From a virus (taxonomy: Duplodnaviria; Caudoviricetes), in the IMG/VR virus record IMGVR_UViG_3300033562_001394, positions 1-37,530 of that record: a stretch of DNA of 37,530 nucleotides. One strand, given 5' to 3'. Made by a program: the position numbers and the translations under genes. Below, piece by piece: positions 112-37,419 of this stretch. The notes beneath the pieces were generated by a model. It was not told the DNA's origin. It did no database searches and saw only the letters and a list, made by a program, of their open reading frames with translations. Position 1 is the first letter of the stretch. The number at the start of each line of letters is the position of its first letter.

Positions 112-489
112 TTAATTGAAATTCCCAATTTCAGCAGCACGAAGCGCACCAACAAGTTGAAGTACAACGTGTTTATGTGGCATAGAAAGTTGTGAAAAAC
201 CACTAATAGAGATTTCTTCATTACTTTTAGATAATTTAGTAGTAATCCAATCAGGTAAATCAGGACGAATTTCTCTCGGATCAACATCCAAAAAATAAGC
301 AAACTTAAACGTAGCTTCAATACCCAATGGTACAGAACCACGCACATACATAGAAACCGCAGATTGATTCATACCTAAATGCTCAGATGCAGTTTCCTGA
401 GTAAAGCGACGTTCTAATTTTCGTTGCTCCCAAATAGAACGCAATCTCTTTGCCGCTTCAATATCTAATTCAATTATTTTCCTATCCAT
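112..489 (-). CDS. CI-like XRE/HTH repressor of the flanking element (no S24 peptidase domain)
   Basis: RLRSIWEQRK...FTQETASEHLGMNQSAVSMY...PL...FAYFLDVDPREIRP resembles the lambda CI N-terminal domain. Confidence 0.8.
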   Translation of the reverse strand: MDRKIIELDIEAAKRLRSIWEQRKLERRFTQETASEHLGMNQSAVSMYVRGSVPLGIEATFKFAYFLDVDPREIRPDLPDWITTKLSKSNEEISISGFSQLSMPHKHVVLQLVGALRAAEIGNFN

Positions 490-555: not shown

Positions 556-563
556 GTTAAATA
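556..563 (+). repeat. Target-site duplication, left copy GTTAAATA
   Basis: Immediately precedes TGTACGG at 564; identical to 36937-36944. Confidence 0.85.
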
Positions 564-3266: not shown

Positions 3267-5183
3267 ATGATTTGGTTGAAAATCTCTGAAGTAAGCAAAT
3301 TAGCGGGTGTATCTGAACGAGCCATTCAGCTTATTGCTAAAAACGGCAAAGCATGGCGCGGTGCGCAGGTTGAGATCAGAGAAGTGGCGGGGATGGGACG
3401 GGGTGGCAAAAGCTATGAGTTTGCATTGGAATCGTTACCCATTGAGTTGCAAAAGAAATACGCAAAAAGCCAAGTCAAAGCATTGCCTGAAACGGTTGTG
3501 GAAAAAGTTGTGCCAATCCAAGTTCCCGATAAAAACAGTTTGTGGAGTGGATTTGAGATTAGACCCGATTCAATCAAAGAAGAAGCGAAGAGAAAACTTA
3601 ATATTTTGAATGAATTAGAGGATTTTCTAGCGAAAGGGCTGGGCGAAGTGAGGGATTTTGCGCTCACGCAAGAGGTCACTGCGGCGACTATCTATCGGTG
3701 GAAGCAAAAGCTCAAAGGGATCGACAAATCGGATTGGCTGCCCGTTTTAGCGGATAAGTACGTGGGCGGACTCCCAACCGCAGAAATTAGCGACGCAGCA
3801 TGGTCGTTTTTCAAGACTTGTTATTTGAATCGGGCGAAAAAACACGCGGCAACCGCCTATAAATACACGGTGATCGCGGCTCGGGAGAATGGTTGGTCGC
3901 TCCCCTCGTACCGTACGGTATTGAGAAAGCTGCAACGTGACGTACCCAACGACGTAGTACGGGTGATGCGTGAAGGAAGCGATGTGGTGAAAGAATTGAT
4001 GCCCAAAATCCGTCGTACCACCGAATGGATGAAAGCCCTTGAATTGATAAACGGTGACGGTCTTGACCCTAAATTGACCTTCGGGGTGGTGTTCACCGAA
4101 GACGGTGAGGTGATTCCACACCCCAAAATCTGGATTTGGCAAGACGTGTACAGCGGGATGATTTTAGGATTTGAACTCGCCAAAAGCGAAAACCGCGACA
4201 TGATTCGCACATCGTTGGGTGAAGTGATTGAAAAGTATGGGATTCCCGATGCCGTGTTGCTCGATAACACCCGCGCAGCAGCAAACAAAGAATTGAGTGG
4301 AGGGATTTCACATCGTTATCGTTTCAAAGTTAAAGAAGAAGAAGCGGACGGGATTCTGAAAATCCTAGGGATTCAAGTGCATTGGGCAACCCCAGGGCAA
4401 GGTTGGGTGAAACCGATTGAACGCAAAAACCGTGATTTGAACGCGCTCATTCCCAACCACCCAATTGTTTTAAATGCAATGACAGAGAAACGCCCTGTTA
4501 GCGATATTGAATTGAATCAAGTTATTTTATCAGCGGTCGAGCAAATTAATAGCGACGTGAAATGTAGAAGTCAGATTTGTGGTGGGGTAAGAAGTCCTTA
4601 TCAAGTGTTTGAAGAATCCTATCAAAAACAATTGATTACTAGACTTACCGTTGAGCAACGCCGTTTATTTATGCTTGCTGCTGAAGGGGTTTCTGTTAGA
4701 AAGGACGGATATATTTCGTTTTATGACAATCTGTATTGGAATGCAGCCTTAGCAAACCATCGGGGTCAAAAAGTTATCGTACGATTTGATGCGAAGGAAC
4801 TTAGAAAGGCGGTTGCGGTGTACATGACCGACGGACGCTTTATGTGTGAAGCCGATTATCAACCCAGCATCGGATTTCTGGATCGGGAAGGCGCACGAAC
4901 CGCAAAACGAATCCAAAAGAATTACAAAGATTCACTTAAAAAAGCTACTGAATTACAGGTCAAAATGGGTGCATCATTAGCGGCAAAACTTATGCCAGAA
5001 ACGCAAAAAACCGTTGAAATTCAACACACTAATGTGGTCAAAGGGCATTTTGGCAAAGGAATTAAAAAGGAAGTGAACGAACCCATGAAGGCAACTGGTA
5101 CGGATGGGAAATCGTATGAAGATGTTTTTACAGCGAATTTAGCAAGATTGAAAGCTGAAAAAGCAAAGAAACCAGTGATTTAA
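3267..5183 (+). CDS. Mu-family DDE transposase (MuA-like)
   Basis: N-terminal Mu HTH (GRGGKSYEFALESLP), I-beta/gamma-like region, catalytic candidates INGDG / LLDN / KPIER, C-terminal NLY...VIVRFD. Confidence 0.95.
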   Translation: MIWLKISEVSKLAGVSERAIQLIAKNGKAWRGAQVEIREVAGMGRGGKSYEFALESLPIELQKKYAKSQVKALPETVVEKVVPIQVPDKNSLWSGFEIRPDSIKEEAKRKLNILNELEDFLAKGLGEVRDFALTQEVTAATIYRWKQKLKGIDKSDWLPVLADKYVGGLPTAEISDAAWSFFKTCYLNRAKKHAATAYKYTVIAARENGWSLPSYRTVLRKLQRDVPNDVVRVMREGSDVVKELMPKIRRTTEWMKALELINGDGLDPKLTFGVVFTEDGEVIPHPKIWIWQDVYSGMILGFELAKSENRDMIRTSLGEVIEKYGIPDAVLLDNTRAAANKELSGGISHRYRFKVKEEEADGILKILGIQVHWATPGQGWVKPIERKNRDLNALIPNHPIVLNAMTEKRPVSDIELNQVILSAVEQINSDVKCRSQICGGVRSPYQVFEESYQKQLITRLTVEQRRLFMLAAEGVSVRKDGYISFYDNLYWNAALANHRGQKVIVRFDAKELRKAVAVYMTDGRFMCEADYQPSIGFLDREGARTAKRIQKNYKDSLKKATELQVKMGASLAAKLMPETQKTVEIQHTNVVKGHFGKGIKKEVNEPMKATGTDGKSYEDVFTANLARLKAEKAKKPVI

Positions 5184-5244
5184 ATCGGTCGTGAGGGCGC
5201 AATCCTCACAACCACTAACTCTTAACCCAATGAAGGTATTCATT

Positions 5245-5589
5245 ATGGAAACTTATGTTAAAAATATTGGCGCAATCGGAGTTAAAAATATTGGCGCAAT
5301 CGGAGTTGAAAATATTGGTCCAATCGGCGTAACTACTGTTGCAAACTATTATTTTCCTGTGAAATTGGGTTACACAGCGGTAATCGAAACACAAAAATGT
5401 AAATACATTTCAGTTCGTCGAAATAAAAAAAATGGGTATTGGGAGGTTGTTTATAATAAAAAAATTTTGGGATCATTTGTAAATAAGAAAGAAGCAATTA
5501 ATTCTAAGTTGAGGTTAAAAAAATACCTTAAAAAATGCCGTAGACTTGACATGCGGCGAAAAGTGCGGTACGGTATTCGCACTACTTAA
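5245..5589 (+). CDS. Small basic protein with VKNIGAIG repeats and an AP2-like DNA-binding motif
   Basis: KYISVRRNKKNGYWEVVYNKKILGSFVNKKEAI resembles the AP2 W...LG.F....EA pattern. Confidence 0.5.
   Translation: METYVKNIGAIGVKNIGAIGVENIGPIGVTTVANYYFPVKLGYTAVIETQKCKYISVRRNKKNGYWEVVYNKKILGSFVNKKEAINSKLRLKKYLKKCRRLDMRRKVRYGIRTT
5257..5328 (+). repeat. 3 x 24-bp tandem repeat GTTAAAAATATTGGCGCAATCGGA
   Basis: Two identical copies (5257, 5281) and one diverged copy (5305). Confidence 0.9.
5546..5574 (+). promoter_or_regulatory. Sigma70-type promoter for the C4/rha unit
   Basis: TTGACA-N17-TACGGT. Confidence 0.6.
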
Positions 5590-5657
5590 ATCCAGTGCGG
5601 TCATCCGCAATTCGTTAATTCCTGCGGCTTTTTTTTGCCCGTTGTGTTATGCTTTTT

Positions 5658-5723
5658 ATGCGGGATGAGAAGGGAAAATATCCAATATCCCTCGCCGTTC
5701 ACTGGACGGTAGTTGAGTCCCGC
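5658..5723 (+). ncRNA. C4-like antisense RNA
   Basis: Closing stem GCGGGA/TCCCGC; CACTGGA and GTAGT are complementary to upstream ACTAC...TCCAGTG (5581-5597) and downstream ACTA...CCAGTG (5747-5761) at the rha RBS. Confidence 0.7.
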
Positions 5724-5770
5724 TCCCACTCATTTTTTGGGAGCATACTAAAAAACCAGTGAGGCATTAT

Positions 5771-6340
5771 ATGTCTAATTTATTCCCTGCTCTAATTACG
5801 CCCGACGTTTCTATCGTTAATGGCGAACCTCAAACAACCTCCCTTGCAATCGCTGACTTCTTTGGTAAATTCCACAAAGACGTTCTTGAAAAAATAAAAC
5901 TTCTTGATTGTTCTGAAGAATTTTCACGGCGGAATTTTACGCTGTCAAATTACACCACAGAACGCGGCAGAAATTACCCGATGTATAACATTACAAAAGA
6001 CGGGTTTGTGTTTTTGGTGATGGGATTTACGGGACGCGAGGCGATGAGATTCAAAGAAGCGTACATTAAACGGTTCAATGAAATGGAAGCGACACTCAAA
6101 AAAGGCGTTAAAAGTCAAGTGGATAGCCACGCTTACATTGAGGTTTTAGAGAAATACGTTGCATTGCTGGAGGAAAAGAACGTGCCAAAACCCAAACGTC
6201 ACGCTGGCAAACGGGTCACGGATGAAGCAAAGATCAAATTTAGCACACTACGCGAAGCGGGTTTTACGAATATTGAAATCGCCGAGCAAACGGGCTATTC
6301 AGATTCAACGGTGAGCTTGATTTTAAAGGGGATGATGTAA
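5771..6340 (+). CDS. rha: Rha-family phage regulatory/antirepressor protein with C-terminal HTH
   Basis: TTSLAIADFFGKFHKDVL...YPMYNITKDGFVFLVMGFTG...FKEAYIKRFNEME is the Rha signature. Confidence 0.92.
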   Translation: MSNLFPALITPDVSIVNGEPQTTSLAIADFFGKFHKDVLEKIKLLDCSEEFSRRNFTLSNYTTERGRNYPMYNITKDGFVFLVMGFTGREAMRFKEAYIKRFNEMEATLKKGVKSQVDSHAYIEVLEKYVALLEEKNVPKPKRHAGKRVTDEAKIKFSTLREAGFTNIEIAEQTGYSDSTVSLILKGMM

Positions 6341-6543
6341 TGAAAATTGTCTTAGAATACCCAACATCTAATGATTTCTTTGATGCGTTGCAGAATAAAA
6401 TCGTCCAACTCAACAACTTTGCCAATGCTGCAATCAAAGGTGAGCTTTCTGGTGACGATCTCGTTTGCCAAAATGCTATTGATGCGTTATGCGCAGACAT
6501 AATCGACCATCTTAACCAAGCCAGCAAAATCTTTAAAATCTAA
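6340..6543 (+). CDS. Hypothetical protein
   Basis: Coupled to the rha stop (TAATG). Confidence 0.6.
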   Translation: MKIVLEYPTSNDFFDALQNKIVQLNNFANAAIKGELSGDDLVCQNAIDALCADIIDHLNQASKIFKI

Positions 6544-6565
6544 TCAGGTGTAATTCCTCCAAATT

Positions 6566-6597
6566 AAAAGCTGACCTTCGGGTTGGCTTTTTTTATG
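6566..6597. terminator. Intrinsic terminator, possibly bidirectional
   Basis: AAAAGCTGACC-TTCG-GGTTGGCTTTTTTT. Confidence 0.8.
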
Positions 6598-6620
6598 GGT
6601 TTTTAACGTGCTATAAAAAA

Positions 6621-6828
6621 ATGAAATCCTTCATCTAACTTTCACCGCACAAATGAGCAAGCATTTATTGAAATCCTCAAAGCGCAAAACAAAGGAATTT
6701 ACCTTGAATTTCGCAAACAAGGGTATTCAGTGACTGAAGCATCCGATGCGGTATTAAATTACATCGACCAAGTCGCCGCAGATATGAAAACCAATTTTAA
6801 CGCTTTTGTACAAAATAGAGGATTTTGA
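6621..6828 (+). pseudogene. Small ORF apparently frameshifted just after its ATG
   Basis: 67-codon open frame 6625-6828 (NPSSNFHRTNEQAFIEILK...) is one base out of frame with ATG 6621. Confidence 0.4.
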
Positions 6829-10200: not shown

Positions 10201-10907
10201 ACGATCATATCCCCGATTGGTTTTATAATCAAATCAATGATTTATTTCAGAATATGTATATGATTGGATTGCCCAATACGCCACCCGCAGAAAACCTTGA
10301 TAAAACATTTCAAGTGTGGGTGAATATTTTGTGGGGTGATCAAAGCAAACGGGTGTGGAAAATAGAGGATTTAGCACGTTTCACCGCGTCGTTTCGGTTT
10401 GTAATGGAGAAAGCCGAGCGTTTCCCAACGCCAGCGGAGATTCTCAAAAACCTGCCCGAACGTAATTCACCGCTTTTGAAATCAACAGAAGAACGATTAG
10501 CCTTGCCTGCGCCCGTTTCAAAATTGACCGATGAGCAAAGAGAACTTGAACGTCAGAAATTGAGAAACGCGGTCGTAGCATTCACGGAGAAAATGGACAT
10601 GGAAAAGCATTTGGCAAAGAAAGCCCGCGAACGCAAACAACTTGACGCGGCATTGAAGGCTGATTTTGAAGGGCTTTTGGAGGCGACTAAACAGGATTTA
10701 ACTCGGCTTGAAATGACCTTTGAAAGTTGTCCATCGCCTTGTCCGCATACCGCGTCGACCTGTGTTTTTTATCATGAATTGATGCGGGTGGTATCAGAAA
10801 TGCAAGCGTGGGAAGTGCCGTACAGTGCGTTGACTTCGCCGCCCATTGATGCCGTACCTTCCGATCCCCAACCAACCAAGAAACGCCGTAAAAAGGCTAC
10901 CGTTTAA
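10197..10907 (+). CDS. Conserved Mu-like phage protein
   Basis: LPNTPPAE...RF...ERFPTPAEILKNLP motif; ATGA overlap with the previous gene. Confidence 0.65.
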   Translation: MNDHIPDWFYNQINDLFQNMYMIGLPNTPPAENLDKTFQVWVNILWGDQSKRVWKIEDLARFTASFRFVMEKAERFPTPAEILKNLPERNSPLLKSTEERLALPAPVSKLTDEQRELERQKLRNAVVAFTEKMDMEKHLAKKARERKQLDAALKADFEGLLEATKQDLTRLEMTFESCPSPCPHTASTCVFYHELMRVVSEMQAWEVPYSALTSPPIDAVPSDPQPTKKRRKKATV

Positions 10908-10911
10908 ACTG

Positions 10912-10933
10912 ACCCGCTTCGGCGGGTTTTTTT
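10912..10933. terminator. Intrinsic terminator between convergent operons
   Basis: ACCCGC-TTCG-GCGGGT followed by a T run. Confidence 0.85.
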
Positions 10934-10936
10934 ATG

Positions 10937-11722
10937 TCACCACGACGGATGATGGGGGAGGACGGTGCAACCACAATTCACGACTTCACCAATCGGGGCG
11001 ATCGGGTCTTTGGGAAAGCGCATGGGGATTCCTCCAATACTAAAAGATTCATTCACGCTCACGATCTGACCGTCAGCGGCAGCGTGTGAAGGGCGCGGCA
11101 TGGCTTTTCCCGAACCCTTCCATTTCTTTTGCATATCGGGAATGAATTCATTGGCATCTTCAAGACGGGTTTGGGTTGCCGATGAAAAGGCGCGCCCCGT
11201 TTCGGTGCGGGTGATCATGAGTGCACGGTTCATGCCAATGTTGGCAATGCCGTCGATGGCTTTCGCCGCTTCAAAAGGATTCTTCACGCCCGTCATCACA
11301 AACGACAGCTCGGTGTTCATGCGCGGGAGTAATTCAGTGGCGATGTCTTTGATTTTCCCTGTAGTGAACGCGGACATTTTCTCTAATTGGCTGACGTTCA
11401 AGACGGGCATCATTCCTTTCGCCATTGTCCCCGTCACAAGTAAGGGTTGCTCGACCAGTTGCCCGCCCAATTCATAAGCATCTTTGAGTTGTGAACCTGT
11501 CGCCATTGCCGCTTGATTGCTTGCATCTTTGAGAAGTTGTTTTAATTCGCGCTTGACTTTTTCCAAATGCCATGTTTCAAACTCGCTCGGTGAATTAGCT
11601 AACACCCGATTGATTTCTTCCATCGACTGTTTCAAATACCCGATCACCCGTTGATCCGTGACCTTTTGAACGCGGCGAAATTCCTGTTGAATCTCCCGCA
11701 TCACCCCGTTAGGCGACGGCAT
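10937..11722 (-). CDS. Head morphogenesis protein (MuF / SPP1 gp7 family)
   Basis: RALMITRTETGRA...KKW...RPSHAAADGQ...F...MRFPKDP...VNCGC. Confidence 0.9.
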   Translation of the reverse strand: MPSPNGVMREIQQEFRRVQKVTDQRVIGYLKQSMEEINRVLANSPSEFETWHLEKVKRELKQLLKDASNQAAMATGSQLKDAYELGGQLVEQPLLVTGTMAKGMMPVLNVSQLEKMSAFTTGKIKDIATELLPRMNTELSFVMTGVKNPFEAAKAIDGIANIGMNRALMITRTETGRAFSSATQTRLEDANEFIPDMQKKWKGSGKAMPRPSHAAADGQIVSVNESFSIGGIPMRFPKDPIAPIGEVVNCGCTVLPHHPSW

Positions 11723-13121
11723 CGTCCGTCACCGCGGGTTGTTCAGAATAGAGGTCGTTTTGGGCTTGGGCAAGCATCGCGTTTTGGGCTTTTTCGATCT
11801 CGATAGCCGCATCAATATCCACACCCATTTGTGAGGAAATGGTATTGAGAATTTCAATTGCCGTTTCGGGTGAAATGAGATTTTGCTGTAAATTCATTAC
11901 GATCCCAGCGGTTAATTGTTGGAACGCCGCTGCATATCGACTGTTATCTTTGGGATTCATTTCAGGGAAAATCGCATGGATTTCAGGTGTTTGTTGATTT
12001 GGCATACCCATTGCTATGAAATACTGACGTGCGACGTAATTGAGGATTTCTTCAACCATTTGCTTTAATTCACGTTGCCGCATCGAAAAGATTTTGTAAG
12101 TCGGATCATCCATTGCTTCAGCGGTCGATCGATTGGCATCGCCGCCTCCCCCAATCCAATGCTCTGGAATGGTATTTCCTGCGAGAATGTGGTTTCTGAA
12201 AAGCCGTGCTGCTGCTGCGGATTCATACGCTCCCATCGACGGAGCTTCGGCTTTCCATTCTTCGTTTTCGTTGTGGAATCGGACGCTTGCCGGCTTTGGC
12301 GCGGTTGTTGCCTTGGCGCGGGCGGTGATTTCTTCTTGGGTTGCACCCGTGACTTTCACATCCCACATAAAAGTACGGGAAATATTCGCCCGTTCGACCT
12401 CGCCAAACATGAAGGTTTCGTAGAGATCGAGCCAATCGAAACTCGCTGCCAAGTCCGAACGACCGCGTTTTGATCCGATTAAGTTATTGATTGCGAAAAA
12501 AAAGCATTCGCCGTCGGTGGCGAGTTGGCGTAAATATTGATCCCGTTCTGAAAACAAGGTTTCGTCAGATTGCGAATAAATAATTTTGAGTTGAAAACAT
12601 TTTCCCGCTTGATTTTGGGTGGTTTTTATGATAACGGGCGATCGTCCGTCATCACTCATGATCACCTCTTCGATATGAACCGCTGGAATGTACCCGATTC
12701 GAACCGTTCCCGTGTACGGCGACACGAACATCGGTAAGCACACTTCGCCATAAATCCCTAATTCCCGTATGAATTGAATGAGAAACTTATCCATTTGATT
12801 CGTCGGGAAATGCCAAAAGTCATTGACTTTCTGATCGATCAATGATTGCAAATCGGGATCATCGGATGCCACTCTCCACGACACCCCGCCGCCTAATAAA
12901 TGCGCGACTTTCAACTCGATCATGCGGTTGGCGATCATGTTGTATCCCCACAAATACACCGCCATGTCTTGCATTCGACGCTGATCGTAGGGCATCAGAT
13001 CGCGGTTTTTGTCACCGCTTAATGGAGTCCAGCCAATATCCTCATTTGCGAAGGTGGTTTGCCCCGCCGCTTCACGCACTGAAAACCATTTTTTAACTGT
13101 GGAAATGATTGTTTTTAGCAT
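11709..13121 (-). CDS. Portal protein
   Basis: 470 aa between TerL and MuF; IYGEVCL, RGRSDL and IPEHWIG motifs. Confidence 0.8.
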   Translation of the reverse strand: MLKTIISTVKKWFSVREAAGQTTFANEDIGWTPLSGDKNRDLMPYDQRRMQDMAVYLWGYNMIANRMIELKVAHLLGGGVSWRVASDDPDLQSLIDQKVNDFWHFPTNQMDKFLIQFIRELGIYGEVCLPMFVSPYTGTVRIGYIPAVHIEEVIMSDDGRSPVIIKTTQNQAGKCFQLKIIYSQSDETLFSERDQYLRQLATDGECFFFAINNLIGSKRGRSDLAASFDWLDLYETFMFGEVERANISRTFMWDVKVTGATQEEITARAKATTAPKPASVRFHNENEEWKAEAPSMGAYESAAAARLFRNHILAGNTIPEHWIGGGGDANRSTAEAMDDPTYKIFSMRQRELKQMVEEILNYVARQYFIAMGMPNQQTPEIHAIFPEMNPKDNSRYAAAFQQLTAGIVMNLQQNLISPETAIEILNTISSQMGVDIDAAIEIEKAQNAMLAQAQNDLYSEQPAVTDDAVA

Positions 13122-13124
13122 CGT

Positions 13125-14510
13125 TTAAGTCCTTATTAGGTGGCGTTTAATTCCGCCCCAAAAACTAGGACGTTCGATGATCGGCGCGGGGTCGATATAC
13201 GCACCCGCAGATTTGACGGGCGAGTGGGTTATCAACCATGTGATCGACCACACTAGTGCGTCCATGCGGTCAGGTGAACTTACGTCGATGGTTGGGTCCC
13301 ATGAGCACATCTCATCTTCGAGGTCGTTGAACGTGCCAACGTGGTGGACTTTCCCTTGTTCGTAGAGCATTGAGATGGGTTCAGCGCGGGTAGTTTTTCC
13401 AACCGACGCACGCACGCCCGCAAAAGGAACGCCGTCGCCACCATTCGCCCGCAGCATCGATTCAATGAGATCGCCGCCTTGATTGGTTTCGCCGACCACC
13501 ACGTTGGCATAGAATTTGTGGTATGCCGTAATAATCTCGGCTGCCCATTCGTGAGGCTTGCCTTTCATGGAGTTATCGGCGAGCACATAGTAGTGCCCGT
13601 CCTTCCCACGACCCACCACCACGATGCCCGTTTGGTTTGATTTTTCGTTGGCGGTGACTGCGGGATCAACGCCGACCACGATGTGCGTGAGTTCGGGTGC
13701 TTTCGTGACGCGAAGCTCATCGATAAGCCCACGATTCCATAGGGCATTTGGATTGTCATCAAGGATTTCTCCATAGAGTTCTTGTCGACCTAAGCGCGTC
13801 CCCTCGTATTTTGCAACGATCTTTTCAATAAAGTTACCCGCAAGGTTTTCATGGTTATCATAAGTCGATCCCCGCGTGACAATCACCCGATCATCGGCGA
13901 CAAGGCTTTTGATTATTTTGGTGGGACGTGGGGTCGTTGTCACCATGAATTGCGGGTGAATGCCTAAGCGCAATCCAAACATCGCGTTGTCGAAGGATTC
14001 TTCGGCATACGTCCAAGCCGCTAACTCATCCATCCATAAAAGACAATGCTGTGGACCGCGTAACAAATCGGGTTCTTCGGCGGTAAAAACCATGCCAACT
14101 GCGCCGTTGGGGAATTCAATTTTGCGTTCGCCGCGCTTATAAACTGGACGATCTTTGCGGGAATAACAGGACAACAAACCGCTTTCGCCGTCGACCATGA
14201 CTCCGCGCACGTCAGATGTGGTACGCCCCACTAATGAAACGCGGGGATAATTGCCAGTAGCAACCATGTTTTTAATCCACTCTGCACCCGTCCGTGTTTT
14301 GCCAAAACCCCGACCCGCTAAAATCAACCAACCATCCCATTCACCTTCGGGTGGCAACTGATTATCGCGTGCCCAAAACTCCCACGAAAAGAGCATTTCT
14401 TCGGCTTCTGCATTGGTTAGATTTGCAATAAACTCAAGTTTTTGACTTTTCGAGAATTGCTGCCAACTTTTCCGTAAGTCGTTGTTTGGCTTCATTGTTA
14501 GTTTGTCCAT
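13125..14510 (-). CDS. Terminase large subunit
   Basis: Walker A LAGRGFGKT, Walker B LWMDE, TTTP motif, nuclease VGVDP and SPDRMDA. Confidence 0.95.
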   Translation of the reverse strand: MDKLTMKPNNDLRKSWQQFSKSQKLEFIANLTNAEAEEMLFSWEFWARDNQLPPEGEWDGWLILAGRGFGKTRTGAEWIKNMVATGNYPRVSLVGRTTSDVRGVMVDGESGLLSCYSRKDRPVYKRGERKIEFPNGAVGMVFTAEEPDLLRGPQHCLLWMDELAAWTYAEESFDNAMFGLRLGIHPQFMVTTTPRPTKIIKSLVADDRVIVTRGSTYDNHENLAGNFIEKIVAKYEGTRLGRQELYGEILDDNPNALWNRGLIDELRVTKAPELTHIVVGVDPAVTANEKSNQTGIVVVGRGKDGHYYVLADNSMKGKPHEWAAEIITAYHKFYANVVVGETNQGGDLIESMLRANGGDGVPFAGVRASVGKTTRAEPISMLYEQGKVHHVGTFNDLEDEMCSWDPTIDVSSPDRMDALVWSITWLITHSPVKSAGAYIDPAPIIERPSFWGGIKRHLIRT

Positions 14511-14979
14511 CTTTGAGGGCAGCGGATTCTTGTTTCATGGTGCGGCGTTCAGGCGCGACGAAGCGTTGGGCTTTAGCGTTTGATGATTGGGCATTTGTAA
14601 TCTTAAAAAGCAGATTCATGCGGGCGAGCGGATCAAGCTGTTCAATATCCTCTTTGGTGATCTCAAGCCAGCCAATCATTTCGTTAAATCTTGCATCAAG
14701 AATCAGGTTATTGAACGCCGCCGTATCATGGATTTTATCGCCCACCTCAGTTAGAAAGGCTTCTGCAATCTCGGCGGCGTGTTTTGCTCGCGTTGCGTCA
14801 TCTTTCATGGATTTAGAGATTCTCCCAGTGGTCGTGCGTGATCGTTCATAGTCAGGTTCGAGGCGTTTGATCTCCGAGTGCAAGCCGTCAATGTCAGAAA
14901 AACCATTATTTTCCTGACGTTGGCGAATTCGTTTCAAAGTCTTCTTTGAAAATTTAGTGTCTGCACGCGGTTTTGGCAT
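14434..14979 (-). CDS. Putative terminase small subunit (Mu gp27/DUF3486-like)
   Basis: Directly upstream of TerL; SRTTTGR HTH-like segment. Confidence 0.6.
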   Translation of the reverse strand: MPKPRADTKFSKKTLKRIRQRQENNGFSDIDGLHSEIKRLEPDYERSRTTTGRISKSMKDDATRAKHAAEIAEAFLTEVGDKIHDTAAFNNLILDARFNEMIGWLEITKEDIEQLDPLARMNLLFKITNAQSSNAKAQRFVAPERRTMKQESAALKDGQTNNEAKQRLTEKLAAILEKSKT

Positions 14980-14985
14980 GATTTT

Positions 14986-15204
14986 TTACATCTTGCAATC
15001 GTTGGTTTTTGCGCAGTCAACTCGCGCTCGCATCGAGTCGAGCTTGTGATCGTTAATTTCCCTTTTGATTGAGTTGATTTCTGCGCGAAGTTCTGCTATT
15101 TGCTCTTTCATGTCGATGTACATTGAGCGTACCATCGGGAAAATAATGCCCATGATAATTGCCGCACTAATTGAAAGGATAGTGGGGATCATTTCAGCCG
15201 TCAT
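14986..15204 (-). CDS. Small membrane-anchored coiled-coil protein of the lysis/packaging region
   Basis: MTAEMIPTILSISAAIIMGIIFP hydrophobic helix followed by coiled coil; ATGA coupling. Confidence 0.6.
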   Translation of the reverse strand: MTAEMIPTILSISAAIIMGIIFPMVRSMYIDMKEQIAELRAEINSIKREINDHKLDSMRARVDCAKTNDCKM

Positions 15205-15326
15205 TTTTTGGTTTCTATTTGGGAGGTAAGGGCTTTGGCGATACCGTTTAGAGCCATTCCAACATTCATCACAAATAACCCTGCTAAAAGCGAGAGTAAA
15301 ATGGCAAGTTTGGTGGCTGGTTTCAT
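15201..15326 (-). CDS. 41-aa hydrophobic peptide (MKPATKLAILLSLLAGLFVMNVG...)
   Basis: Not in the ORF track; ATGA-coupled to both neighbours. Confidence 0.55.
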   Translation of the reverse strand: MKPATKLAILLSLLAGLFVMNVGMALNGIAKALTSQIETKK

Positions 15327-15514
15327 TTTGAGAAATCCACTTTATCGGGAATGGAAATGCCAAATGTCCCCGCAATCGTAATGGCTGCGCTCGTGATAAG
15401 GCTTGCTGTTTCAGTGGAAAATGCAAAGCCAAAAAGCCCGCCAATAAATAGCACTGCACCACGCCAAGTCGAGGGTTCTTTGAGACGTTCTGAGATGTAT
15501 TCTGGGTTAATCAT
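15323..15514 (-). CDS. Putative holin
   Basis: RLKEPSTWRG motif and two hydrophobic segments; first gene of the leftward late operon. Confidence 0.65.
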   Translation of the reverse strand: MINPEYISERLKEPSTWRGAVLFIGGLFGFAFSTETASLITSAAITIAGTFGISIPDKVDFSK

Positions 15515-15545
15515 ACGCTGAAATCCTTGATATTTAAATGATTCC

Positions 15546-15597
15546 AGTGTATGAGAAGGGACAGGGGAAAGGCTAGGGGAAGGGCTTCATTTTTTTA
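15546..15597 (-). promoter_or_regulatory. Leftward late promoter (candidate Mor/C-dependent)
   Basis: TAAAAAAATGAAGCCCTTC (15597-15579), 27 nt, then TACACT. Confidence 0.65.
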
Positions 15598-15886
15598 TGA
15601 TGCTGCGAATTTGGCGTACCGTGAGGTGGTATTTGTGGGCAAGTTCACGGGCGTTTGAACCATTGAATTCAGCGGCTATTGCTTGGTTTCGATAGTGTGT
15701 GGAGAGCGCGGTCGCTTTGGGGACATAGAATTGATCGCCGCCGTATTGTTGAGTGATGCGTAGGGTGATTTGATCGGCATGGTGAACCGCTTGAATCGGA
15801 TCGTTAATGAGCACCATGAGGGTGTTTGCAATGATTTCATTGATCCCGCCAAGTCCTTCGCCCCATTTTTCAGATGCTAATCCCAT
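15587..15886 (-). CDS. mor: Mor/C-family transcription activator
   Basis: YGGDQFYVPK...RNQAIAAEFNGSNARELAHKYHLTVRQIRSII. Confidence 0.92.
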   Translation of the reverse strand: MGLASEKWGEGLGGINEIIANTLMVLINDPIQAVHHADQITLRITQQYGGDQFYVPKATALSTHYRNQAIAAEFNGSNARELAHKYHLTVRQIRSIIKK

Positions 15887-16101: not shown

Positions 16102-16153
16102 TAAAAAAATGAAGCCCTTCACCTGACGTTTATGTGGTTTTGATTCTTAAAAT
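16102..16153 (+). promoter_or_regulatory. Rightward late promoter (candidate Mor/C-dependent)
   Basis: TAAAAAAATGAAGCCCTTC (16102-16120), 27 nt, then TAAAAT. Confidence 0.65.
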
Positions 16154-32173: not shown

Positions 32174-34627
32174 ATGGCATTTCAATTCCCTTCATTTCCA
32201 ATCCAATTTGCACCATATCCGATAGCGAATGGATTTGCGATAAACGTCCCGTTGCAATTTGGAACAACGGAGACGGCGACGGGTTTTGGAATGCTATTTG
32301 TCACGATTGGATTTGCAAATTATCCAATTTATCAAGGGCTTGCAATTAATGTGCCCGTGCACTTTGGGCTTCCTGAAACACGGACGGGTTTTGAGTTCCC
32401 GATAATTTACCCTAAAGGTTTAGGGGGAACTCCGCCGCTTCTTTTAGTTCCGCCGTCGATGGATTTTAGCCTTGATATACCCACGCCGACGGTGGTTATT
32501 CCCCATTTAAGTGCCGTTTTAGAGCCACTTAATTTTGATTTTAGCCCTCAAATCCCTCATGTTTTTGCGAGTTTTCAAACGACTTCGCCGCAGGTTGAAT
32601 TTGATTTAACCATCGAAAACCCTACTGTTCACGCGGGTGCAAACCTGTTTGTTGAGCCGCTGTCGTTTGCGTTGGAAATGCCCGCGCCATCCTTTGCGAG
32701 TGCGCAGATCATTTTCGTGCCAACGACGGAATTTGACCTTACAATTCAAACACCTACCGTTCACGCGGGTGCACATCTTTATCCGCCCGCGCTTGACTTT
32801 GAGTTAAAACTCCAAATACCCAAGTGTTTTTCAAGTTGGCATGGTTTATGTCAAGCTGAAAACTTCTTCTTAACCCTTGAAACGCCTAGTGTTTTCGTAG
32901 CCGCTGTTGTAAATGTGCCCGCGTCCGCGTTTGATTTGGGAATGCCGCCGCCGCGCATTATGCCGTTTGTGCCGTCGCTAGGTTTCGACCTTGAAATCCC
33001 CGTTCCAACGGTAGTCGTCAGTTTCATTTCAACCGCCGACCCTTTTGACCTTTTCTTTGAAATGCCCACACCCAAAATAAGAAAAGTTATTTTGAGTGGC
33101 ACGGATTTACCTATTTCTTATCGGGTATTATCGGGTATTGACCTACCTTTTTATAGGGAATTGCGGATCATGTCGGGCGTGGATTTGCCCTTGAAAGTCG
33201 TTGAAAATGACAAGGTCATGGCGGGCGTTGATCTGCCCTTCAAAGTAAGGTTGTTATCGGGTATTGACCTACCTTTTTATAGGGAATTGCGGCTCATGTC
33301 GGGCGTGGATTTGCCCTTGAAAGTCCTTGAAAACGACAAGGTCATGGCGGGCGTTGATCTACCCTTCAAAGTAAGGTTATTATCGGGTATTGACCTACCT
33401 TTTTATAGGGAATTGCGGATCATGTCGGGCGTGGATTTGCCCTTTATGGATGAAAAAAAGGTGTTATCTGGTATTGATTTACCCTTTAAGATTCAAGATA
33501 AAACCATCATTTTATCAGGGGTTGATCTTCCTTTCACGTCAATTGAAAAGCCCTCGATCTTTGTGGTTAGCGATGAGAATTATGCGATCCATCAAGGGCA
33601 ACGGGTTGATTTGCTTGACTATATGATTTCACAGGATTGGGATACTTACCTGTGGACGGGTCAAATGTCAATAGCGAATCATCAAGATTACGCACGAATG
33701 CGCAAAAACGATGCCATAATTTTGGTTTTACAAGGTGTTGATTATACGTTGGTTATTCAAAACCGTTCGCATTCTGATGATGGGAATAATGGGCAAGCCA
33801 AATTTACCATCGATGTTGCGTCGCCGACCGTTGCGTTAAGCGATAAAAACCTTAAAATATCAAAGGCATGGGGTGCAGTGATGGCAAGCGTCGCCGCGCA
33901 AGCAATCGTTGAACAACCCATTGATTGGCAAATCGTGGATTGGTTATTGCCAGCGGGTCGTTTGAGTTATGAAAACGCCAACCCAATGGAATTATTAAGA
34001 AAATTAGTCGACGCAGCGGGCGGGATCGTGCAAACCACACGGACGGGATCGCTCAAAGTTCAATACAAAACACCCTGTGCAATCAATAAGTTATCTGCGT
34101 CGGCGATTGATTTCACCTTTTCAGACACCGCCCACATTTTCAACTACGATGAACGCACGCCGAGTGGGGATTTTTTCAACGCGGCGATCATCACCGATAC
34201 GGATAACGCGGTCGACCGCCAATGGTCGGGTGAATACATACCGACCGATGATGTGAGCGGCGTGTTAAGGGTGTATGGTCACGCATGGCTTAACCCAGAC
34301 AGCTTTGAAGTGACCACGACGGGAAATCCAAGCATCAAAATCGGGCAAGGCGTGGTAGTATATATAGAAGAAAATCAAACGCTTGAATTTAAAAAAGGTC
34401 AAGCATCGACCAGTTACCCCGTGTTTATTCTCAGAGAATGTGTGTGGAAATATGCAAATTTAGGAGAATTGATGTGGGAATTGGATTCACCTCAACTCAA
34501 AACCGCCGCGCCGTCGTACAGTGTGGCAGAACTAAAATACACTCGCCGTGTGGTAGATTTCCCGATCCGCCATAACGTGCAAGACCTTGAAACCTCTCAA
34601 TTTTTGGTGGCAGAATATGTCGACTAA
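32174..34627 (+). CDS. Large tail protein with repetitive N-terminal half and hub-like C-terminus
   Basis: Pro/Phe repeats, 11 x [SA]G[IVT]DLP, then WQIVDWLLPAG...NPMELLRKLVDAAGG. Confidence 0.7.
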   Translation: MAFQFPSFPIQFAPYPIANGFAINVPLQFGTTETATGFGMLFVTIGFANYPIYQGLAINVPVHFGLPETRTGFEFPIIYPKGLGGTPPLLLVPPSMDFSLDIPTPTVVIPHLSAVLEPLNFDFSPQIPHVFASFQTTSPQVEFDLTIENPTVHAGANLFVEPLSFALEMPAPSFASAQIIFVPTTEFDLTIQTPTVHAGAHLYPPALDFELKLQIPKCFSSWHGLCQAENFFLTLETPSVFVAAVVNVPASAFDLGMPPPRIMPFVPSLGFDLEIPVPTVVVSFISTADPFDLFFEMPTPKIRKVILSGTDLPISYRVLSGIDLPFYRELRIMSGVDLPLKVVENDKVMAGVDLPFKVRLLSGIDLPFYRELRLMSGVDLPLKVLENDKVMAGVDLPFKVRLLSGIDLPFYRELRIMSGVDLPFMDEKKVLSGIDLPFKIQDKTIILSGVDLPFTSIEKPSIFVVSDENYAIHQGQRVDLLDYMISQDWDTYLWTGQMSIANHQDYARMRKNDAIILVLQGVDYTLVIQNRSHSDDGNNGQAKFTIDVASPTVALSDKNLKISKAWGAVMASVAAQAIVEQPIDWQIVDWLLPAGRLSYENANPMELLRKLVDAAGGIVQTTRTGSLKVQYKTPCAINKLSASAIDFTFSDTAHIFNYDERTPSGDFFNAAIITDTDNAVDRQWSGEYIPTDDVSGVLRVYGHAWLNPDSFEVTTTGNPSIKIGQGVVVYIEENQTLEFKKGQASTSYPVFILRECVWKYANLGELMWELDSPQLKTAAPSYSVAELKYTRRVVDFPIRHNVQDLETSQFLVAEYVD
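33128..33444 (+). repeat. About 2.5 x 126-bp in-frame tandem repeat
   Basis: TTATCGGGTATTGACCTACC starts at 33128, 33254 and 33380. Confidence 0.9.
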
Positions 34628-36615: not shown

Positions 36616-36647
36616 AAAAGCTAGCCTTCGGGTTGGCTTTTTTTATG
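36616..36647. terminator. Intrinsic terminator
   Basis: AAAAGCTAGCC-TTCG-GGTTGGCTTTTTTT. Confidence 0.8.
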
Positions 36648-36788: not shown

Positions 36789-36936
36789 CCAGTCGCAAAC
36801 CAGTTGGCAATAAATCGGGATTTAACAAAAACCAGTCGCAAACCAGTTGGCACGACCCCGCCCGCAATCCCGCATTATACCGTCATATTCCATAATATCC
36901 CGCCTCCCCCAGTCGCAAACCACCTGCCCGCTTACA
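36789..36936 (-). repeat. Right end (attR) with three transposase-binding repeats
   Basis: CCAGTCGCAAACCAGTTGGCA at 36789 and 36832; CCAGTCGCAAACCACCTGCCC at 36909; terminal TTACA. Confidence 0.85.
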
Positions 36937-36944
36937 GTTAAATA
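36937..36944 (+). repeat. Target-site duplication, right copy GTTAAATA
   Basis: Immediately follows the terminal CA; identical to 556-563. Confidence 0.85.
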
Positions 36945-36995: not shown

Positions 36996-37154
36996 ATGAG
37001 TGCGAAAGTCACAAATTTCTATATTAAGAAACAGGACACCAAAGGCACACCCCGCCTTGTGTTATGGATACTTTCAGAATGTGCCGAAGAACTTAAAAAC
37101 AAACCTAAAAATCAAACTGTTAAAACAGATTTTGATGATGATGTGCCATTTTAG
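36996..37154 (+). CDS. 52-aa protein with SSB-like acidic tail (DFDDDVPF), flanking element
   Basis: C-terminus matches the SSB C-terminal peptide DFDDDIPF; too short for an OB fold. Confidence 0.55.
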   Translation: MSAKVTNFYIKKQDTKGTPRLVLWILSECAEELKNKPKNQTVKTDFDDDVPF

Positions 37155-37164
37155 GAGAAAAAAA

Positions 37165-37419
37165 ATGAGTAACCATGAGTTAATTGATGTAAGAGCAACT
37201 ACTGTCCCTTTTTGGCAAATCAGTGAAATTAAAAATGCCATTCGTGCAATTAGAACTTATGAATATATCATTGCGGAAAATTTAAAACAATATCAAAGAT
37301 TTGTTTCTATAAATCCTATTGATATTAAAACAACCATGCAAATGGATAATCTTGTTGGAACTCTCGAAAATCTTAGAGTTTATAACTCAAATCATTACCA
37401 ATCAATTCAAAGAAATTGA
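37165..37419 (+). CDS. Hypothetical protein, flanking element
   Basis: AGGAG RBS. Confidence 0.55.
   Translation: MSNHELIDVRATTVPFWQISEIKNAIRAIRTYEYIIAENLKQYQRFVSINPIDIKTTMQMDNLVGTLENLRVYNSNHYQSIQRN

What the first reader, a model, noticed from the sequence alone, without database searches (positions are those of the whole stretch)
3267..6543. No MuB ATPase: an AP2-like repeat protein and a Rha cassette occupy its slot
Seen: the only convincing ATPase Walker A/B pair in the prophage is in TerL. The gene after MuA is a ~114-aa basic protein with VKNIGAIG-type repeats and an AP2-like motif. Known: MuB, an AAA+ protein encoded right after A, does target capture, target immunity and MuA activation. 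Inference: either a MuB-independent transposition system, possibly using a small DNA-binding protein for targeting (notable together with the 8-bp TSD), or a prophage that lost B by cassette replacement. The otherwise intact genome makes the first option worth testing.
Basis: partly seen in the sequence, partly recalled or inferred. Interest (0 to 1): 0.78.

Follow-up and report, generated by a model that had tools for sequence, protein, structure and literature searches.

The report
Mu-like prophage crippled by MuB loss
This Mu-like prophage lacks MuB because a foreign 1.4-kb anti-repressor cassette has replaced that gene and half of the next one, while most of its close relatives keep MuB, so it is likely an ordinary defective prophage and not a new MuB-free way of transposing.

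Summary
In detail: there is no MuB in any frame, and an orphan 114-aa ORF, a Rha gene and a 67-aa ORF follow MuA. The exciting reading does not hold. A relative with 84% MuA identity (L002) has an intact MuB here. The window keeps MuB's leader and first 7 coding bases, then 1,406 foreign bases replace 1,102 bases, and homology resumes inside the next gene, which is left headless. Of 9 close relatives with near-full-length MuA, 7 have a MuB record on a contig of the same length, including the two closest (96-97%). The other 2 are broken in other ways. All 79 more distant MuA loci with downstream sequence have a MuB-like gene. The 114-aa ORF is a fusion to MuB's start codon, has no true homologue, and is only weakly AP2-like. 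The rest of the cassette is a self-contained module also found in an unrelated phage: promoter, structured RNA whose variable loop matches sites on both sides (c4-type logic, related to Rfam sRNA-Xcc1), and Rha. Verdict: a likely defective transposable prophage made by cassette replacement. The RNA covariation is the better side lead.

The parts
3267..5183 (+). MuA-family DDE transposase, open frame, 638 aa
   Evidence: Pfam and PHROG hits; close relatives at 67-97% identity
5184..5251 (+). Remnant of the MuB locus: A-B spacer, ribosome-binding region and the first 7 coding bases of MuB (start codon 5245)
   Evidence: Aligns to L002 2196-2263, where MuB starts at 2257
5252..6657 (+). Foreign 1,406-bp cassette replacing 1,102 bp (nearly all of MuB plus the 5' half of the next gene)
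   Evidence: Joint 'skips 1102, 1406 letters between'; reciprocal joint 5251 to 6658; blastn
5245..5589 (+). 114-aa orphan ORF: MuB start codon fused in frame to cassette DNA; C-terminal half predicted as three strands plus a helix (AP2-like, unproven)
   Evidence: G+C 0.33 against 0.45 for MuA and 0.51 for L002 MuB
5257..5341 (+). Tandem 24-bp repeat in three copies, which gives the VKNIGAIG repeats; starts 5 bases after the left junction
   Evidence: Family D2
5546..5574 (+). Likely promoter of the Rha module (perfect -35, 17-base spacer, weak -10); lies inside the last codons of the 114-aa ORF
   Evidence: Conserved in L017 and visible upstream in many related loci; not called by the consensus scan
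5592..5597 (+). Upstream site complementary to the RNA's variable loop
5660..5723 (+). Structured RNA, predicted c4-type antisense regulator; shortened relative of Rfam sRNA-Xcc1 that lacks the distal hairpin
   Evidence: Fold z -2.5; alignment and pair counts; 10 of 20 relatives pass the RF02221 gathering score; the window copy does not
5756..5761 (+). Downstream site complementary to the loop, next to the Rha ribosome-binding site
5771..6340 (+). Rha-family phage regulator with a C-terminal HTH, 189 aa
   Evidence: Pfam Phage_pRha E 9e-31; PHROG anti-repressor and Rha families
6340..6543 (+). 67-aa ORF coupled to Rha, no family
   Evidence: L017 has a 64-aa ORF in the same place with no BLAST similarity
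6566..6597 (+). Terminator-like hairpin closing the cassette, 94% identical to the one at 36616-36647
   Evidence: Family D4; fold z -3.6; not called by the scan
6658..6828 (+). Headless 3' half of the gene that follows MuB (105 aa in L002); the only in-frame start listed is a GTG at 6730 (32 aa)
   Evidence: tblastn 75% over residues 46-105, E 3e-27; frames
556..563 (+). Left copy of the 8-bp flanking direct repeat; prophage starts TG at 564
36937..36944 (+). Right copy of the 8-bp flanking direct repeat; prophage ends CA at 36936

Best explanation
This Mu-like prophage lost MuB when a foreign 1,406-bp cassette replaced 1,102 bp running from the third codon of MuB to the middle of the next gene, which likely leaves it transposition-crippled. 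Shown: the junctions, the retained MuB leader and start codon, the headless downstream gene, and MuB in the relatives. Inferred: the swap was an illegitimate or microhomology recombination with another mobile element. The 114-aa ORF is likely donor DNA that happens to be read from MuB's start codon. The promoter, RNA and Rha form a self-contained anti-repressor module in which the RNA would silence Rha by pairing with sites in its own leader, as c4 does in P1. With intact ends and MuA but no B, the element would transpose far less often and would fail at lytic replication unless a B-positive relative supplies MuB in trans. The cassette's terminator may also cut transcription of gam and later early genes.
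For: L002 MuB: phrog_296 E 2.6e-80, Phage-MuB_C and AAA_22 above cut-off. Junctions. A 7,685-bp contig in run X6 differs from the window's MuA at 32 of 1,899 bases and runs without a break from A into B; a full-length MuB with Walker A and B is on record on a contig of that length (P0201). 7 of 9 close relatives have a MuB record on a contig of equal length. 79 of 79 distant MuA loci with downstream sequence have a MuB-like gene. The downstream gene is decapitated. The 114-aa ORF has no true homologue among 5.8 billion clusters or 1.84 billion representatives. The promoter-RNA-Rha module recurs at 72% DNA identity in an unrelated phage contig, without the 114-aa ORF. In Mu, B-less prophages transpose nearly two orders of magnitude less often and had not lysed when wild type had (passages of PMC7350765).
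Against: The rest of the prophage looks open-framed, with both ends and a flanking repeat, so decay has not begun or the lesion is recent. The cassette form is seen in more than one study (both junctions in X3; each cassette protein on 5 contigs), so it persists. I did not test whether those copies sit at one site or several. The donor was not found, so the recombination mechanism is untested. The 114-aa ORF's C-terminal half is predicted to fold (pLDDT 70-90), so it may be functional. Activity was not measured.
Confidence: 0.86

Rival explanations
1. MuB-independent transposition: the 114-aa protein, made from MuB's own start codon, replaces MuB as target-capture factor for MuA.
For: It sits exactly in B's slot under B's translation signals, is basic, and has a predicted three-strand-plus-helix half with weak AP2-type matches. 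MuA, the ends and the flanking repeat are intact. Mu can transpose weakly without B (PMC7350765).
Against: A singleton. MuA is about 98% identical in DNA to B-using relatives, so no sign of adaptation. The swap also broke the next gene. The ORF's end overlaps the Rha promoter, and the Rha module occurs elsewhere without it. No B-less lineage among relatives.
Confidence: 0.03
2. Helper-dependent hitchhiker: the B-less prophage stays mobile by borrowing MuB in trans from a co-resident B-positive relative, and the acquired Rha module helps to induce that helper.
For: Ends, MuA and structural genes are kept. Short low-depth contigs resembling L002 MuB occur in runs X1 and X3. Rha matches anti-repressor families. 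That MuB can act in trans is recalled knowledge.
Against: The MuB-like pieces are 37-179 bases long, two of the three at depth about 2, and cannot be placed in the same cell. No second insertion site was seen. Rha's target is unknown.
Confidence: 0.08
3. Assembly chimera: the cassette was joined to the prophage by misassembly.
For: The Rha region has very high summed depth from other elements in some runs, which favours misjoins.
Against: One 7,789-bp contig in X1 spans both junctions, and contigs in X3, a different study, show both junctions with the cassette's letters.
Confidence: 0.03

Closest known systems
Phage Mu and Mu-like transposable prophages (MuA-MuB operon); B-deleted Mu prophages
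   Same: MuA family, TG...CA ends, about 36.4 kb, gam, GemA and Mor genes. Relatives carry the standard A-B pair. A B-less state has been studied in Mu (PMC7350765, passages).
   Different: B is lost by natural cassette replacement. The flanking repeat is 8 bp, against 5 for Mu and 6 for B3 (PMC8705779, passages). The terminase-portal block is on the opposite strand to the other late genes.
P1/P7 immI (c4 antisense RNA, icd, ant)
   Same: A small structured RNA inside the leader of an anti-repressor-type gene, with a variable segment complementary to sites on both sides. c4 control of ant is described in passages of PMC8201110 and bioRxiv 2020.03.17.996009.
   Different: No match to Rfam C4. 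The downstream gene is Rha-HTH. No icd or ash ORF was identified. Regulation is untested.
Rfam sRNA-Xcc1 (RF02221)
   Same: 10 of 20 relatives of the RNA pass its gathering score and align with the window copy.
   Different: The window copy lacks the distal hairpin and does not score. The passages I read treat the family as a trans-acting or virulence-linked sRNA, not as a cis-paired c4-type regulator.
AP2-domain proteins of phages (alone or on HNH endonucleases)
   Same: Predicted three strands plus a helix; weak Foldseek neighbours include HNH and AP2/ERF entries.
   Different: No significant match: Pfam E 0.058, best Foldseek E 0.027, no HNH domain.

Membership tests
Mu-like transposable prophage | MuA-type DDE transposase | tested here: met
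Mu-like transposable prophage | MuB AAA+ ATPase next to A | tested here: not met
   Present in relatives, so the loss is secondary and the element is filed as a defective derivative
Mu-like transposable prophage | TG...CA ends with a short target duplication | tested here: met
   564-36936 with an 8-bp repeat, one site only
Mu-like transposable prophage | Mor/C and GemA marker genes, virion genes | tested here: met
   markers named in PMC8705779
Mu-like transposable prophage | Replicative transposition on induction | not testable with these tools
   No culture, RNA or virion data
MuB-independent transposition system | B consistently absent across a lineage with intact A | tested here: not met
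   7 of 9 close and 79 of 79 distant relatives have B
MuB-independent transposition system | A conserved substitute gene in B's slot | tested here: not met
   The 114-aa ORF is a singleton
AP2 domain (PF00847) | Profile score above the curated cut-off | tested here: not met
   14.1 bits against 33.3
AP2 domain (PF00847) | Three-stranded sheet packed on a helix | tested here: inconclusive
   Single-sequence model shows the topology; no fold match at E<=0.001; the wide structural search could not be run
Rha family (PF09669) | Profile score above cut-off | tested here: met
   106.7 bits against 29.9
c4 antisense RNA (RF01695) | Covariance-model match | tested here: not met
c4 antisense RNA (RF01695) | Single-stranded segment complementary to sites upstream and downstream in the same leader (works-like test; feature partly recalled) | tested here: met
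   At least 6 complementary bases in 21 of 21 upstream and 19 of 21 downstream, against 8% and 6% of 414 non-cognate pairs
sRNA-Xcc1 (RF02221) | Covariance-model score of 53 bits or more | tested here: not met
   Window copy. Met by 10 of 20 relatives

The most novel reading that the evidence does not exclude
The B-less prophage is a newly arisen MuB-independent transposable phage in which a small AP2-like DNA-binding protein, made from MuB's own start codon, delivers MuA to targets without ATP.
Probability: 0.03. Interest if true: 0.8.

Novelty: new member of a known kind. Interest (0 to 1): 0.17.

Why it matters
As it stands it is a clean natural snapshot of how a transposable prophage is disarmed: one small swap removes the replication ATPase and leaves ends, transposase and virion genes in place. 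It warns that 'transposase without MuB' genomes should be checked against relatives before a new mechanism is claimed. If the novel case were true it would be a transposable phage working without an AAA+ partner, which would matter for target selection and genome engineering. The side result, that sRNA-Xcc1-like RNAs carry a variable loop matching sites on both sides of their own locus, makes a testable claim about what that family does.

Tried and rejected
Divergent or frameshifted MuB in the window: rejected. MuB elsewhere in the host could not be tested, because the held genome is only this record. Close MuA relatives in viral and genome collections: none; left-end pattern in viral contigs: 0 hits, so no second duplication could be measured. 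The four extra phmmer hits to the 114-aa ORF are long repeat proteins and were rejected as artefacts. Atlas hits of 0.80-0.84 are at chance level; the AP2 cluster scored 0.76 with 15% of members. PDB fold search: nothing at E<=0.001; the wide search never ran. The 67-aa ORF and the L017 64-aa ORF do not align. Rfam on the cassette gave only chance matches. The promoter/terminator scan missed both predicted signals. Co-folding the ORF with MuA was not run: I do not claim binding, and a single-sequence orphan chain would give a weak test. 41 of 62 motif hits lacked the closing stem and were dropped as chance; L136 duplicates L088 and was dropped. Small-share runs were not used. Three look-ups in earlier findings returned nothing. 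Paper searches for a described natural B-less Mu-like phage found none; the library lacks most subscription journals and I read no supplements.

Full report
The window is a 37.5-kb virus record, and nothing else of its genome is held. It contains a Mu-like prophage: MuA at 3267-5183, gam, an HU-like gene, GemA, Mor, terminase, portal, head and tail genes, and an adenine methyltransferase. The element starts TG at 564, an end shared with relative L001 while the flanks differ, and ends CA at 36936. The same 8 bases flank both ends (the script was one base off and shows a 9-base repeat that includes the T of TG). This is one site only.

AAA_22, TniB and Phage-MuB_C find nothing in six frames. phrog_296 hits only the Rha C-terminal HTH at 12.6 bits. 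A relative's MuB finds nothing by tblastn, best E 0.64. An HMM of 76 MuB proteins gives 4.1 bits at best. Of 7 Walker-A-like motifs, only TerL's is in an ATPase family.

Relatives decide the question. Three loci were fetched from the metagenome collection. L002 (MuA 84%) has a 319-aa MuB directly after A. The window matches L002 through the spacer and the first 7 bases of MuB, then diverges, and rejoins at window 6658 = L002 3366, inside the 105-aa gene that follows B. The window keeps only the last 55-60 codons of that gene, at 75% identity, without its start. Laying contigs on L002 gives the joint 'skips 1102, 1406 letters between' in run X1, which may be the source. Both junction ends also appear in X3, a different study, so misassembly is unlikely.

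Closer relatives keep B as well. A 7,685-bp contig in X6 differs from the window's MuA at 32 of 1,899 bases and runs unbroken over L002 1700-3149, that is from A through 893 of the 960 bases of B. In X8 a contig with 42 differences runs 172 bases into B and a second contig covers most of the rest. One search lists 13 close MuA records: the window, 3 fragments (dropped) and 9 others. 7 of the 9 have a MuB record on a contig of identical length, including the two closest at 96-97%. This link by length is an inference. The two without B are L001, which jumps from window position 5235 into a diverged tape-measure gene, about 19 kb missing (possibly a misassembly), and L003, whose MuA is cut short and followed by a replication-initiator-like ORF near the contig end. 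Neither carries the cassette. Among the best 80 of 594 distant MuA loci, 76 have a MuB-like gene downstream by tblastn, 3 more by HMM, and 1 has no downstream sequence.

The 114-aa ORF is MuB's start codon fused in frame to cassette DNA. Its repeats are a 24-bp triplication beside the junction. Its G+C is 0.33 against 0.45 for MuA. It has no true homologue. A single-sequence model leaves residues 1-52 unresolved and gives three strands and a helix for 55-109 at pLDDT about 70-90. AP2 support is weak: Pfam E 0.058, Foldseek best E 0.027 in viral models and nothing in the PDB, Atlas at chance level. Its last codons overlap the predicted Rha promoter. I read it as captured donor DNA, possibly the end of an AP2-type gene (inference).

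The rest of the cassette is a portable module. An unrelated phage contig (L017) shares 5559-6100 at 72% and has the same order: promoter, leader, Rha, small ORF. A 17-base motif search gave 62 loci, of which 21 have the closing stem. In the window and 20 distinct relatives, a variable loop of the RNA is complementary over at least 6 bases to a site upstream in 21 of 21 and to a site downstream in 19 of 21, against 8% and 6% of 414 non-cognate pairs. The set was picked by motif and its members are related, so this is not a formal probability. 8 of 19 consensus pairs show two-sided changes. 10 of 20 relatives pass Rfam sRNA-Xcc1. The window copy lacks the distal hairpin and passes neither that model nor C4. 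The layout matches c4 control of the P1 anti-repressor (passages of PMC8201110 and bioRxiv 2020.03.17.996009; details of c4 pairing are recalled). I found no paper assigning c4-type action to sRNA-Xcc1 in two searches (passages read; the original 2011 paper was not read). A terminator-like hairpin closes the cassette.

How it likely works. Shown: replacement of B and half of the next gene. Inferred: illegitimate or microhomology recombination with another mobile element; the donor was not found. In Mu, loss of B lowers transposition by nearly two orders of magnitude, and B-less prophages had not lysed when wild type had (passages of PMC7350765). The element is therefore likely trapped, unless a B-positive relative helps in trans. 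The 8-bp repeat does not argue otherwise: the stagger is attributed to the transposase (PMC8705779) and the target consensus to MuA. A 2026 preprint lists 'transposase without MuB' as a genome class without describing a mechanism in the passages I read.

Against this reading: the remainder looks undecayed, the cassette form persists in more than one study, and I could not test whether it occupies more than one site. No activity was measured. Verdict: observation confirmed, MuB-independent system not supported, defective prophage by cassette replacement (0.86). Interest 0.17. Supplements were not read; they might hold catalogues of B-less prophages.

Noticed in passing
window 5546-5770; L082-L137 (21 loci): RNAs of or near Rfam sRNA-Xcc1 carry a variable 6-8-base loop that matches sites upstream and beside the downstream ribosome-binding site in each locus. 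This suggests the family acts as c4-type regulators of the adjacent gene; I did not find this in two paper searches.
   Followed up: partly
window 556-563 and 36937-36944: 8-bp flanking direct repeat, longer than the 5 and 6 bp reported for Mu and B3. One site only; likely a trait of this MuA lineage, untested in relatives.
   Followed up: partly
L001 8941-9180: A second close relative (MuA 94%) lost B by a deletion of about 19 kb that starts 16 bases from the window's junction, and L003 has a truncated MuA. Repeated lesions at the A/B junction may reflect selection to disarm these prophages, or a fragile spot.
   Followed up: partly
window 10937-15886: Mor, terminase, portal and head-morphogenesis genes lie on the minus strand, opposite to the other late genes. 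A contig of run X8 spans 10437-12000 with 9 differences, so the arrangement is shared and not a lesion.
   Followed up: partly
window 112-489 and 37000-37419: The prophage sits between a CI-like repressor gene and small divergent ORFs, so it likely inserted into the control region of another prophage. L001's copy lies near tRNA-like genes (judged from translations), a different site.
   Followed up: no
window 6566-6642, 16102-16130, 36616-36647: The cassette's end resembles the phage's own signals: the hairpin is 94% identical to the one after the methyltransferase, and 6614-6642 is 83% identical to a stretch upstream of the head gene. The donor may be a related phage.
   Followed up: partly
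L095 1448-1535: A Thiomargarita MAG carries a similarly shortened RNA (81% over 89 bases); a weak hint that the host is a large sulfur bacterium.
   Followed up: no
window 33123-33500: Three 126-bp tandem repeats in an 817-aa tail-like gene. No endolysin was recognised by Pfam or PHROGs among 52 ORFs.
   Followed up: no
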